From the IMG/VR virus record IMGVR_UViG_3300024051_000127, positions 1-24,418 of that record: 24,418 bases of DNA; one strand, written 5' to 3'. This DNA comes from a virus. Taxonomy: Duplodnaviria > Caudoviricetes. Below, one piece after another: positions 4,600 to 17,391 of this stretch; the stretch's first letter is position 1, and the number at the start of each line of letters is the position of its first letter. The notes below the pieces were generated by a model. It was not told where the DNA came from, searched no databases, and saw only the letters and a program-made list of their open reading frames with translations. The translations under genes were made by a program, and so were the position numbers.

Positions 4600-4676
4600 T
4601 GGTTGCGGTGGCAGGATTTGAACCTGCGGCCTCCAGCTTATGAGGCTGGCGAGCTACCGGGCTGCTCTACACCGAC
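4600..4676 (-). tRNA. tRNA with CAU anticodon (fMet-like body)
   Basis: GTCGGTG TA GAGC AGCCCGGTA GCTC G CCAGC CTCATAA GCTGG AGGCC GCAGG TTCAAAT CCTGC CACCGCA A CCA gives a full cloverleaf with encoded CCA. Confidence 0.9.
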
Positions 4677-13052: not shown

Positions 13053-13207
13053 GCGGCGGCTCCCCAGAAATGCAGGAAGACAAACAAGGCGTTGAGGAGG
13101 AATACCGGCACGACGGCGAGCCACGCCCACCAACGAGGAGACAGGAAGAAGGATATCGAGAGCGTTCCGCAGGCGAACGCATTCATGGCTAGATCGATAT
13201 CGCTCAT
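13049..13207 (-). CDS. Small membrane protein (52 aa, not in ORF track)
   Basis: Coupled to the cro stop and to the next start. Sequence MSDIDLAMNAFACGTLSISFFLSPRWWAWLAVVPVFLLNALFVFLHFWGAAA. Confidence 0.7.
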   Translation of the reverse strand: MSDIDLAMNAFACGTLSISFFLSPRWWAWLAVVPVFLLNALFVFLHFWGAAA

Positions 13208-13413
13208 GCTGCATTCTCCGGCTGGCGGGCGGTCATGAAGTCATTTGCCGTGACCTTGCCGTTCGTGGCCTTCGAGATGCGCACGAGGATTTCGGGCTTC
13301 GGAATGCGCCCAGCAACCTTGTATCGCCACAGCGCTTGCCGACTGACGCCGATGCGCTCCGCAAAGTCAGCGTCCGAAGTATTCGTCTTGAGAAGCCAGT
13401 TGGTCAGGGTCAT
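13204..13413 (-). CDS. cro: Cro-like HTH repressor
   Basis: FAERIGVSRQALWRY...RIP...TNGKVTANDF. Divergent from cI. Confidence 0.85.
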   Translation of the reverse strand: MTLTNWLLKTNTSDADFAERIGVSRQALWRYKVAGRIPKPEILVRISKATNGKVTANDFMTARQPENAA

Positions 13414-13419
13414 GCGCCA

Positions 13420-13502
13420 TATATGTCACCATTTTGGTGACGGCGCAAGAGAAATTGTCACCACTTTGGATACTCGCCACATCTCCGGTCTGGTGACATG
13501 AC
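13420..13502. promoter_or_regulatory. OR region: three operators plus divergent PR/PRM
   Basis: Operators GTCACC-N5-GGTGAC 13425-13441, GTCACC-N5-GGATAC 13457-13473 and ATCTCC-N5-GGTGAC 13481-13497. Minus-strand promoter TTGCGC-N17-CATATA. Confidence 0.85.
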
Positions 13503-13508
13503 TCCGGC

Positions 13509-13931
13509 ATGACCAAAGGAAAGTTCCCGAACGGCCTGCGGAAGGCCATGAACGCCAAGAAGATTGGCCTGACCGAGTTGGCTAATCTTGTCGGGACGGC
13601 CAAGCAGAACATCGAGCGATGGGCCAACGGCGAACGTGCGTTGAAGCCAGACATGGCCGCGAAGCTCGCGCCACTCCTCGACGTGTCGGCCAGCCAGCTA
13701 CTTCTGCTGCCAGACGACGGCAGACCGAGCGAACCGAGCAAGGAAGAGAAAATGGAGGCGGACGCACTCGCAACCTTGCGCGCCGCCCTCATAGCCTACG
13801 GTGTCGATAAACGGCAACTGGCTACTCTGCTGCCCGTTATAGATACCTTCGTCACGAAGGCAAAGCAGGCGCAACCAGAACAAACGGGTTCTCGTGATCT
13901 ACCTCAACCCGCCACTCCCCGCCGTGCATGA
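13509..13931 (+). CDS. cI: CI-like XRE repressor without S24 peptidase domain
   Basis: LTELANLVGTAKQNIERWANGER HTH. Only 140 aa. Confidence 0.8.
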   Translation: MTKGKFPNGLRKAMNAKKIGLTELANLVGTAKQNIERWANGERALKPDMAAKLAPLLDVSASQLLLLPDDGRPSEPSKEEKMEADALATLRAALIAYGVDKRQLATLLPVIDTFVTKAKQAQPEQTGSRDLPQPATPRRA

Positions 13932-14833: not shown

Positions 14834-15322
14834 ATGCCTTCTGAAGACTTTTGGGATGCCGCACTGAAGTATTCAGACATCCTAAGCAATTTTGCGGCGA
14901 TAGCTGGTGTCGTCGCCTTGATATTTTTATGGAAGCAAGTTCGCTTGATGGAGAGAACAGATAAAGGCCGAAATACGATTGAAGTAATGAACTTTCTTCA
15001 AAAAGCCGAAATTCGGAGCGCTCGATATCATATACGGACAATTAAAGACAAACCTGTTTCTGAATTCAATAAAGTCGATTTTGAAATGGCATCACTTGTG
15101 GCCTCTTCATTTGATCTTGTCGGAATAATGGCTGAAAAAAAATACATTGAAGAGGAAATAATAATAGACGCATGGGGCCCCGCATTAATATACAACAATA
15201 TTGCCCTAGCAGAATACATCAATGCAAGGAGAATCAAGGAAGGACCGCGCTTCTGGGTCCGCTTTGATAATATCACTAGAAAATCCAAGGAGTTTCATTC
15301 AATTTTCACGCCACACCAATAG
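14834..15322 (+). CDS. DUF4760-like membrane-anchored protein
   Basis: N-terminal TM helix, pattern FDLVGIM...W...YINARR...FWVRFD, AT-rich DNA. Confidence 0.65.
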   Translation: MPSEDFWDAALKYSDILSNFAAIAGVVALIFLWKQVRLMERTDKGRNTIEVMNFLQKAEIRSARYHIRTIKDKPVSEFNKVDFEMASLVASSFDLVGIMAEKKYIEEEIIIDAWGPALIYNNIALAEYINARRIKEGPRFWVRFDNITRKSKEFHSIFTPHQ

Positions 15323-15477: not shown

Positions 15478-15544
15478 ACCGGCCACCTATTTTACTAATA
15501 ATATCAATATATTAAGGAGTTCTTTCATGGCTTTACCGGCCACC
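15478..15544 (+). promoter_or_regulatory. Candidate anti-BstA (aba) element
   Basis: ACCGGCCACC direct repeats at 15478-15487 and 15535-15544 straddle an AT-rich spacer and the bstA start codon. Confidence 0.65.
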
Positions 15545-16432
15545 CCTAAACAGATGAAACTTGATTTGGGAGTAGAAATAGAAAGCGATGTCGGAGGCAT
15601 TGAGATGGGGGTGCTGGAAAACGGCATGGCCTACCTCACACAACGTGGATTGTCCTCAATGTCTGGCGCGGCAAGATCAACCATTCAGGAAATCTCCAAG
15701 GAATGGGAGGACAATTACGGCACAGGAATGGAACCTCCTGGGCGCGTAAGATGGTTTTCGGACTATCTTCGGGAAGCCGGATACGACGCCCCCACGCTAT
15801 ACATGGAAACTGAGCGAAACGGATCGCCGCACTACGCTTATCCTGACCTGGTGTGCATGGCATTCATCGAATACTACGCATTTGAAGCCCAAAGGAAAAA
15901 CGATACAGCCATGGCGAATTATCGCCGGTTAGCCCGTTATGGCCTCAACAAGTTCATTTACGACGCACTGGGGTACAAGCCTACCGATAAATGGGCATAC
16001 TTCACCGATCGCGTAACCATTCTAAACGACGCTACGCCTGAAGGTTGCTTCATCGTCTTCAAGGAAGTCACAGGCATGATCGTGGACCTTATCCGTGCCG
16101 GCCTGCCGATCAGCGATAAGACGATACCCGATATAAGCGTAGGTCAGGTTTGGGCGAACTACTGGCGAGACAAGGGGCTAGAGACACGGTTCGGTGAGCG
16201 ATGCGGGTACGATCATTATTACCCGAGTTATTATCCCCAAGCAAAAAGCAATCCTCAACCCGCTTGGGCCTACCCTGAAGATGCGCTCCCGGAGTTCCGA
16301 CGCTGGTTCAGAACTATCTATCTCCCCACAAAGTACCCAGCCTACATACTAAACAAAGCCAAGGTTCTCGCTGGGGGTAAGGCGCAGGCTCAGCAGATCG
16401 CCGAGTTGTACCAGCCGAAGAAAATCAAGTGA
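15527..16432 (+). CDS. bstA: BstA-family abortive infection protein
   Basis: Motifs GIEMGVLENG..YLTQ.GL, HYAYPD.VCMA..EYYAFEA and SNPQ...AYP..AL.EFRRWF match my recollection of Salmonella BTP1 BstA. Size (~300 aa) and position downstream of cI also fit. Confidence 0.85.
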   Translation: MALPATPKQMKLDLGVEIESDVGGIEMGVLENGMAYLTQRGLSSMSGAARSTIQEISKEWEDNYGTGMEPPGRVRWFSDYLREAGYDAPTLYMETERNGSPHYAYPDLVCMAFIEYYAFEAQRKNDTAMANYRRLARYGLNKFIYDALGYKPTDKWAYFTDRVTILNDATPEGCFIVFKEVTGMIVDLIRAGLPISDKTIPDISVGQVWANYWRDKGLETRFGERCGYDHYYPSYYPQAKSNPQPAWAYPEDALPEFRRWFRTIYLPTKYPAYILNKAKVLAGGKAQAQQIAELYQPKKIK

Positions 16433-16480: not shown

Positions 16481-16506
16481 AGCCCGCCCTTCCGGCGGGC
16501 TTTTTT
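16481..16506 (+). terminator. Intrinsic terminator after bstA
   Basis: AGCCCGCC-CTTCC-GGCGGGCT followed by a T tract. Confidence 0.85.
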
Positions 16507-16575
16507 GTGCGATCCGTACCGAAAAGCCGGAATCAGCCCTTCCCGCTGATGAGGGAAAGCCATAAGCTTGCTTCC

Positions 16576-16660
16576 GAAACCCTCCCATGGAGTTTCACCC
16601 GCGGCAAAATTCCTGACTCCGTCGCGTCATTGCCCCGCCTTCGTGCGGGGCTTTCTTTTT
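16576..16660 (+). ncRNA. Putative sRNA, copy 1
   Basis: Promoter TTCCCG-N17-TAAGCT (16540-16568), 5' hairpin GAAACCCTCCCATGGAGTTTC, terminator GCCCCGC/GCGGGGC plus Ts. Confidence 0.65.
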
Positions 16661-16714
16661 GCGCGTCACGAGACCCCCTTCCCGCGCAGCCGTGAAAGTT
16701 ATAGACTGCCCCTC

Positions 16715-16791
16715 GAAACCCCTCCCCGGAGTTTCATTTGCGGATATCGATCAACCTTCATATTTGCCCCGCCTTTGTGCGGGGCTTTTTT
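16715..16791 (+). ncRNA. Putative sRNA, copy 2
   Basis: Promoter TTCCCG-N17-TAGACT (16679-16707), 5' hairpin GAAACCCCTCCCCGGAGTTTC, near-identical terminator. Confidence 0.65.
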
Positions 16792-17070
16792 GTGCGGCGT
16801 GGACTCAATCCTGAATTGGTGATCTTATCGAGATGCGGCCCCGGCGAGGCCCCGACTGGTAATCGGACAATCCTCGCCGGCACTCCGCATCCTGCCCGGA
16901 CAACCGGACTTGCGGATGCACTTCCGGAACCGATACCAAGCAGGGCCGCCAAAAGGTGTGCGCACACCAGGAGGCGGGCCGGTAGACCAAGAGAACGGCG
17001 GCTTATCCGTTCCTACTTGGCATGAACACGCAACCGTAAGGTTCCGTGGCCACGGACCTGGAGCTATCTC

Positions 17071-17160
17071 ATGAAGAAGCCCACGGTCAGCATCGAGGTT
17101 AAGATCGACTTGGTAGCCTGCGTCCTGCTCGCTATCTTCGTCATCGAACGCCTCACCTGA
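17071..17160 (+). CDS. 29-aa hydrophobic peptide, type I toxin-like (not in ORF track)
   Basis: GGAG SD, sequence MKKPTVSIEVKIDLVACVLLAIFVIERLT*, long structured leader, own terminator. Confidence 0.7.
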   Translation: MKKPTVSIEVKIDLVACVLLAIFVIERLT

Positions 17161-17166
17161 TGCCTC

Positions 17167-17201
17167 GCCCCTCTCGGTTTTGCCGGGAGGGGCTTGTTTT
17201 T
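17167..17201 (+). terminator. Intrinsic terminator after the peptide gene
   Basis: GCCCCTCTCGG...CCGGGAGGGGC followed by TTGTTTTT. Confidence 0.8.
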
Positions 17202-17303
17202 GAGAGGGCCAACTTGGTAGGCCGCCTCTCTCCTTCTCGATAAAGAACCTACGATCGTTGCCTCGAAGCCCTCGGTTCACGCCGAGGGCTTCTTGCGTTG
17301 GTG

Positions 17304-17332
17304 ATTCTACGCGGGTTTGGTGGAGGGGGCAA
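17304..17332 (-). promoter_or_regulatory. Sigma70 promoter for a convergent antisense RNA
   Basis: TTGCCC-N17-TAGAAT on the minus strand. Predicted start ~17297, followed by hairpin 17265-17292. Confidence 0.65.
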
Positions 17333-17338
17333 TCTTTT

Positions 17339-17391
17339 GTCACCATTTCGGTGACTTTCTGATTGACGCGTCACCAATTCGGTGACATATT
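17339..17391 (+). promoter_or_regulatory. OL operators and PL promoter
   Basis: Perfect GTCACC-N5-GGTGAC at 17339-17355 and 17370-17386. Promoter TTGACG-N17-CATATT. Confidence 0.9.

What the first reader, a model, noticed from the sequence alone, without database searches (positions are those of the whole stretch)
16537..16791. Tandem sRNA genes with a constant scaffold and a variable 20-25 nt core, directly behind bstA
Seen in sequence: two units 139 bp apart. Each has its own promoter-like TTCCCG-N17-TA(AG/GA)CT, a G 8 nt after the -10, a hairpin GAAACCC(C)TCCC..GGAGTTTCA carrying an anti-SD CCUCCC, and GCGG. A divergent segment follows (CAAAATTCCTGACTCCGTCGCGTCAT versus ATATCGATCAACCTTCATAT), then a near-identical terminator. 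Both variable segments carry CAT (anti-AUG) near their 3' end. Inference: a modular family of guide-like antisense RNAs aimed at translation starts of rival-phage, host-defence or own genes. I do not recognise the family, although suhB/MmgR and cuckoo RNAs also carry CCUCCC motifs.
Basis: partly seen in the sequence, partly recalled or inferred. Interest (0 to 1): 0.85.

Follow-up and report, generated by a model that had tools for sequence, protein, structure and literature searches.

The report
Phage-borne pair of rhizobial small RNAs
A temperate phage of rhizobia carries two duplicated small-RNA gene units that are divergent relatives of an uncharacterised Sinorhizobium RNA; they likely dampen translation by pairing at ribosome-binding sites like ordinary bacterial small RNAs, not as swappable guides.

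Summary
The two units are real (2 matches, 0 in 100 shuffles). They have no Rfam match, but unit 1 shares an upstream motif, promoter, three-hairpin layout and terminator with a multi-copy rhizobial family that includes the sequenced S. meliloti RNA SmelC434. A model built without the window scores unit 1 at 85 bits and unit 2 at 40. SmelC434's mapped start and 3' end fit the predicted promoter and terminator. Across the family the 5' hairpin is the most variable part, and the 'core' is a covarying second stem-loop that usually carries GAGCCAA/GAAGGCAA. The CAT is not conserved and lies on the wrong side of the anti-SD to pair with one ribosome-binding site. No perfect core target was found. 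bstA linkage is loose (1 of 10 bstA loci). Unit 1's loop does show a modest predicted preference for start regions. Best reading: AbcR1/AbcR2-like anti-SD sRNAs in a prophage accessory slot, locally duplicated with remodelled seeds. Expression and targets in this phage are unproven.

The parts
15527..16432 (+). bstA (context; not required partner)
   Evidence: phrog_6287, E 3.9e-105
16481..16508 (+). Intrinsic terminator separating the upstream gene from unit 1; a like terminator precedes family members in L140, L225, L328 and L349
16516..16545 (+). Conserved family upstream motif running into the -35 (TTCCCG 16540-16545); likely an activator or extended promoter element; absent from unit 2 apart from the -35
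   Evidence: 0.88 mean identity in alignment A2 (members were picked by this motif)
16563..16568 (+). -10 of unit 1 (TAAGCT)
   Evidence: Aligns with TAGCGT of SmelC434, whose TSS is mapped 7 nt downstream
16576..16660 (+). Predicted sRNA 1, about 85 nt: SL1 16576-16596 with CCUCCC; SL2 16600-16626 with a 15-nt pyrimidine-rich loop 16606-16620; terminator 16632-16660
   Evidence: transcript not observed
16679..16707 (+). Predicted promoter of unit 2 (TTCCCG-N17-TAGACT)
16715..16791 (+). Predicted sRNA 2, about 77 nt: SL1 16715-16735 with CCUCCCC; weak SL2 16742-16765; terminator 16766-16791; inferred local duplicate of unit 1
   Evidence: transcript not observed

Best explanation
The two units are duplicated, divergent members of the rhizobial SmelC434-type gene family, likely transcribed as ~85- and ~77-nt three-hairpin small RNAs that are predicted to repress translation by short anti-Shine-Dalgarno pairing at ribosome-binding sites, probably of host mRNAs and probably with Hfq. 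Shown: the anatomy, family membership by covariance model, covariation of the second stem, and (in the S. meliloti homolog only) the start site and 3' end. Inferred: a sigma70-type promoter with an upstream activator motif drives unit 1 in the lysogen, from the accessory slot between cI and the leftward early promoter. A local duplication from the -35 to the T-run made unit 2. In this lineage the family's C-rich linker seed shrank, a CCUCCC seed sits in the 5' hairpin loop (kept in both copies), and the second loop was replaced. In unit 1 that loop is a second, accessible anti-RBS seed; in unit 2 it is weakly folded and of unclear use. This resembles AbcR1/AbcR2: many short-seed targets, not one guide per target.
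For: Model R2 (27 non-window members) scores unit 1 at 85 bits, E 1e-22, and unit 2 at 39.9 bits; the next window hit scores 7 bits. The RNA-only model R1 gives 48.7 and 42.7 bits, next 12.2. The L223 element reads the same as SmelC434 in the PMC3927594 supplement. Its TSS is mapped at 1821286, 7 nt after the homologous -10 (PMC3616915 Table S2), and its 3' ends fall at the T-run (PMC2873474 Table S1). SL2 covaries in 5 of 7 pairs, and 0 of 500 shuffles reach the score. 79 of 90 bodies keep a YYCCC run and 85 of 90 fold into three hairpins. L318, L343 and L401 also carry CCUCCC in SL1. AbcR1/2 use aSD1 in the 5' loop and aSD2 (UUCCCCUC) between SL1 and SL2 (PMC8844928), the same two positions. 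Unit 1's SL2 part gives <= -7 kcal/mol at 17 of 290 start regions against 1 of 282 internal ATG controls; none of 20 loop shuffles reached 17.
Against: No transcript of either unit was seen. Much of unit 2's model score comes from the terminator, and its SL2 did not align to the model. Both units lack the family GAGCCAA loop. Whole-RNA start enrichment for unit 1 was not significant by rank test (p 0.20) or in the held-out subset (6/120 vs 4/112); for unit 2 it was 29/290 vs 19/282 (p 0.10). The test genome G320 is a stand-in, not the known host, and its starts were called crudely. Unit 1's SL1 anti-SD was seldom used in the best predicted duplexes. 454 data also show a longer 156-nt SmelC434 form that includes the upstream motif. 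No Hfq data were seen.
Confidence: 0.6

Rival explanations
1. Relaxed duplicates: the family gene entered the phage slot and duplicated; only the promoter, SL1 and terminator remain constrained, and the 'cores' drifted after losing the GAGCCAA loop, so they carry no target information.
For: Core identity between the copies (11/26) is no higher than that of the promoter spacer (9/17). Unit 2's SL2 is weak and its upstream motif is gone. Related phages lack the module.
Against: Unit 1 keeps a 6-bp SL2 stem in family register, and its loop beats 20 of 20 shuffles for start-region pairing. Unit 2's core is unchanged in a contig from another run (low depth).
Confidence: 0.17
2. Protein-binding or decoy RNAs: they titrate Hfq or another RNA-binding protein, or act as antitoxin for the neighbouring 29-aa peptide or as a BstA modulator.
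For: Structure, and a loop motif, are conserved across the family. A type I toxin-like peptide gene follows at 17071-17160. A family member also sits directly behind bstA in G318 and head-to-head with bstA in L230.
Against: Pairing to the peptide start region is negligible (-1.3 and -2.6 kcal/mol). The peptide homolog in L147 has no family member. Only 1 of 10 bstA loci found by protein search carries one. BstA self-immunity is the DNA aba element at the gene start (PMC8585504). Neighbours are highly varied (largest cluster 11 among 116 genes).
Confidence: 0.13
3. One reading: a constant scaffold with hypervariable, exchangeable guide cores aimed at start codons of rival phage or defence genes.
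For: Two copies share SL1 and terminator but differ in the core. A second tandem pair with unlike cores exists in L438. Unit 1's loop is a predicted seed.
Against: The scaffold is not found elsewhere (0 of 90; pattern scans gave only apparent chance hits). The cores form a stem-loop. CAT is not conserved, has the wrong polarity, and AUG is covered in only 3 and 5 of the top 30 duplexes, like controls. No long complement was found in 50,697 phage records or 30 genomes. The cores were unchanged where covered in run X6.
Confidence: 0.07

Closest known systems
SmelC434 (Sm118, SMc06565) and, by position, SmelC435 (Sm48) of Sinorhizobium meliloti; RFM SmelC434 in PMC3927594
   Same: Upstream motif, -35/-10 spacing, start position, SL2 stem register and terminator; homologous by covariance model.
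   Different: The published model has 4 Sinorhizobium sequences and includes 75 nt upstream of the later-mapped TSS. The window copies are phage-borne, tandem, lack the GAGCCAA/GAAGGCAA loop and have CCUCCC in SL1. No function was found in the papers searched.
AbcR1/AbcR2 (alpha-r15)
   Same: Tandem homologous sRNAs with three hairpins; anti-SD in the 5' loop and C-rich anti-SD between SL1 and SL2 (PMC8844928).
   Different: No Rfam ar15 hit even at E<=10; shorter (77-85 nt vs 114-121 nt); no lsrB neighbour; in a phage accessory slot.
NfeR1 / cuckoo (alpha-r14) and MmgR/suhB
   Same: CCUCCC-type motif in a hairpin loop.
   Different: Only one such loop per RNA, where NfeR1 has three. suhB scores 15.4 bits against a cut-off of 41, on unit 2 only.

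Membership tests
SmelC434-type family | Upstream GTACCG..GAATC..CCTTCC motif fused to the -35 | tested here: met
   Unit 1 full; unit 2 keeps only the -35 part
SmelC434-type family | TA-started -10 at 16-18 nt from the -35, start 6-7 nt later | tested here: met
   115 of 119 members; both units; TSS mapped for SmelC434
SmelC434-type family | Three hairpins; SL2 opened by GCG; GCCCCGC terminator | tested here: met
   Unit 1 clear; unit 2 SL2 weak
SmelC434-type family | GCCAA/GGCAA motif in the SL2 loop | tested here: not met
   80 of 90 members have it in the body. Neither window loop does; unit 1 has GGCAA only across the stem edge. Hence 'variant'.
SmelC434-type family | Single-stranded C-rich linker between SL1 and SL2 | tested here: inconclusive
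   Reduced to ACC in unit 1 and absent in unit 2; CCUCCC lies in SL1 instead, as in L318, L343 and L401
AbcR1/2 (Rfam ar15) | Match to the Rfam model | tested here: not met
   homolog loci also unmatched
AbcR1/2 (Rfam ar15) | Hfq binding and anti-SD repression of mRNAs | not testable with these tools
   Only predicted pairing
Cuckoo/NfeR1 | Repeated hairpins each showing the anti-SD loop | tested here: not met
   One such loop per unit; no Rfam hit
Guide-type array (constant repeat, unique spacer) | Scaffold constant across loci, cores matching targets at length | tested here: not met

The most novel reading that the evidence does not exclude
Rhizobial temperate phages capture a host AbcR-like sRNA gene with its regulated promoter into defence-gene slots, duplicate it and rewrite the second loop, giving each phage its own set of seeds to silence host defence or rival-phage genes alongside BstA.
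Probability: 0.15. Interest if true: 0.7.

Novelty: new variant of a known kind. Interest (0 to 1): 0.4.

Why it matters
It turns an orphan S. meliloti transcript (SmelC434; 3 papers in the library mention it) into a multi-copy family. The family occurs in most genomes of two rhizobial genera and in prophage accessory regions, is missing from Rfam, and was annotated with a 5' end that probably includes its promoter. The phage pair is a compact natural case of sRNA duplication and seed remodelling. It is not evidence of a new guide-RNA system.

Tried and rejected
None combined the anti-SD hairpin with a following terminator. Rfam at gathering and E<=10: only sub-threshold hits, best anti-hemB at 23 bits against 49.5. 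blastn of the region against phages: only terminator-sized hits. Core searches: unit 1 had no match and unit 2 had three E=3 same-strand matches in phages; unit 1's core had 0 of 30 genomes at up to 3 mismatches; unit 2's core was not searched in genomes. Own-phage targets: 43 hand-picked starts (at least one misplaced) scored no better than 60 random windows; the bstA RBS ranked 2nd for unit 1 at -7.0 kcal/mol, a value 5 or more random windows beat. SmelB126 was considered from its text description; its sequences were not compared. RNA-labelled runs X5, X8 and X9 did not cover the units; contigs cannot show absence. Earlier findings: nothing. PMC4152363 (tried as the S. meliloti Hfq co-IP study, id recalled) is not held. 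PMC2573895 main text has no sm48 or sm118.

Full report
Setting. The window is a fragment of a temperate phage of rhizobia. Its terminase is 82% identical to Rhizobium phages RHph_TM3_3_3 and RHph_N28_2, and it has divergent HTH genes at 13204-13413 and 13509-13931, read here as cro and cI. Between cI and the leftward early promoter (about 17363-17391) lie accessory genes, bstA (phrog_6287), two terminators, the two units and a leader-peptide module. Owen et al. describe this slot as a mosaic hotspot (PMC8585504, passages). Related prophage stretches L463, L464, L141 and others lack the units (0 of 6 loci above 14 bits). A contig in run X2, possibly the source sample, joins 16509 to 17386 with 71 other letters between.

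Observation. Confirmed in full, with two matches against none in 100 shuffles. Between the copies SL1 is 18/22 identical, the terminator 26/30, the promoter spacer 9/17 and the core 11/26. The shared SL1, found in no other member, points to an old local duplication (inference).

Family. Searching with the terminator and the DNA upstream of unit 1 found a family in named Sinorhizobium, Shinella and Ensifer records, viral contigs and metagenomes. The upstream pattern occurs in 26 of 30 genomes of G283's genus, with 0 for the reversed control. Model R2 finds members in 30 of 32 genomes of G062's genus, 5 of 10 of G070's and 9 of 151 sampled across the family, often at 2-4 copies. Models built from 26 and 27 members without window-identical loci score unit 1 at 48.7 and 85 bits and unit 2 at 42.7 and 39.9 bits; unit 2's score rests largely on promoter and terminator.

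After dropping L273 and L281, which are identical to the window, I held 119 distinct genes with 90 distinct RNA bodies. Of these, 85 fold into three hairpins, 80 carry GCCAA/GGCAA, 79 carry YYCCC, 9 carry CCTCCC, 4 have CAT in the last 10 nt, and 0 have the window's SL1. Members were picked by upstream motif and terminator, and many were fetched with the models, so those figures lean high. In alignment A2 mean identity is 0.28 for the SL1 region, 0.70 for the linker and 0.64 for the SL2 loop. The SL2 stem has double-sided changes in 5 of 7 pairs. L318, L343 and L401 bridge to the window by carrying CCUCCC in SL1. L438 is another close tandem pair with unlike cores.

Known member. The L223 element reads the same, by eye, as SmelC434 in the supplement of PMC3927594 (I read sections 2.2, 2.3, part 1 of 2 of section 2.5, and supplement rows). 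A second member about 1.86 kb downstream in L258 matches SmelC435 by position only. PMC3616915 Table S2 maps a TSS at 1821286 with first bases GCA, position 76 of the 156-nt model and 7 nt after the -10 that aligns with the window's TAAGCT (passages and supplement rows). PMC2873474 Table S1 gives 3' ends at the T-run, but also 5' ends at 1821211-16 and 1821313, so a longer form containing the upstream motif exists. I read the motif as DNA because no conserved pairing was found there and, in the window, it begins about 8 nt after a terminator. PMC7143759 lists SmelC434 as expressed in nodule zone II (table passage). Searches for SmelC434, Sm48/Sm118 and SMc06565 returned 3, 4 and 1 papers, none giving a function in the passages or listings seen. 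(listings only) showed no report of this family in phages. Subscription papers and bioRxiv supplements were out of reach and may hold Hfq data.

The guide idea. A 5' anti-SD and a 3' CAU cannot pair with one SD-AUG site, because antiparallel pairing would put the AUG upstream of the SD (sequence logic). No long complement was found. In run X6, unit 1 up to 16614 follows a different upstream sequence with two promoter changes, and unit 2's core is unchanged; these are separate low-depth contigs. The phage's own starts are not enriched. In 400 kb of stand-in genome G320, unit 1's best duplexes use the SL2 loop. The SL2 part reaches -7 kcal/mol at 17 of 290 starts against 1 of 282 internal ATGs, above all 20 loop shuffles (best 15 vs 4). 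The whole-RNA figure is 23/290 vs 8/282 (p 0.006), but 6/120 vs 4/112 in the held-out part, and the rank test on 170 of each gave p 0.20. Unit 2 gives 29/290 vs 19/282. A canonical member uses its C-rich linker and GAGCCA loop. This is modest, generic anti-RBS behaviour.

bstA. Of 10 bstA loci found through protein searches (L447-449, L489-494, L217), one (L494, the same place as L328) has a member directly downstream. A closely related bstA in G200 has none. L230, found by its terminator, has one head-to-head with bstA. Other divergent members lie by lysis, methyltransferase or integrase genes. The link is best read as shared accessory slots, though three occurrences leave a functional tie open.

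Mechanism and verdict. AbcR1/2 carry anti-SD seeds in the 5' loop and in the SL1-SL2 linker and repress many mRNAs at the RBS (PMC8844928, passages). The family has the linker seed and the window copies have the loop seed. I conclude that these work like AbcR1/2 without being Rfam ar15 members (0.6). Rivals are drifted cores (0.17), protein-binding or antitoxin roles (0.13) and exchangeable guides (0.07). The finding is a real, unannotated variant of a known kind; interest 0.4.

Noticed in passing
window 16830-17335: A 29-aa hydrophobic ORF (17071-17160) with a ~240-nt leader, its own terminator, a downstream hairpin and a minus-strand promoter-like site. It is conserved in L147 (8826-8921) and L465, and the leader is in contigs of RNA-labelled runs X8 and X9. 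It looks like a type I toxin-antitoxin or leader-controlled peptide module with no Pfam or Rfam hit.
   Followed up: partly
window about 15478-15545: Direct repeat ACCGGCCACC before and inside the bstA start; the CCGGCCACC-type repeat is kept in L447-L449 and nearly in L489. Candidate aba self-immunity element, by analogy to the terminal repeats in PMC8585504.
   Followed up: partly
window 17339-17355, 17370-17386 and about 13427-13443: Palindromic GTCACCA..TGGTGAC-type repeats at the early promoter and between cro and cI: likely repressor operators.
   Followed up: no
L438:1308-1641 (minus strand): A second tandem pair of family-like units 193 nt apart with different cores; the second type also occurs alone in L439.
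   Followed up: partly
L328/L494:370-504 and L230:2496-2629: Canonical family members beside distantly related bstA genes (42% and 37% identity to the window's).
   Followed up: yes
L258:6103-6177: A short hydrophobic ORF (about 24 aa) behind an RpoE2-type promoter, where PMC3616915 lists SMc_sRNA_259 as non-coding; it may be a small membrane protein.
   Followed up: no
window 4604-4676 (minus strand): A tRNA gene in the phage.
   Followed up: no
window 14835-15322: AT-rich DUF4760 gene just upstream of bstA in the same accessory slot.
   Followed up: no
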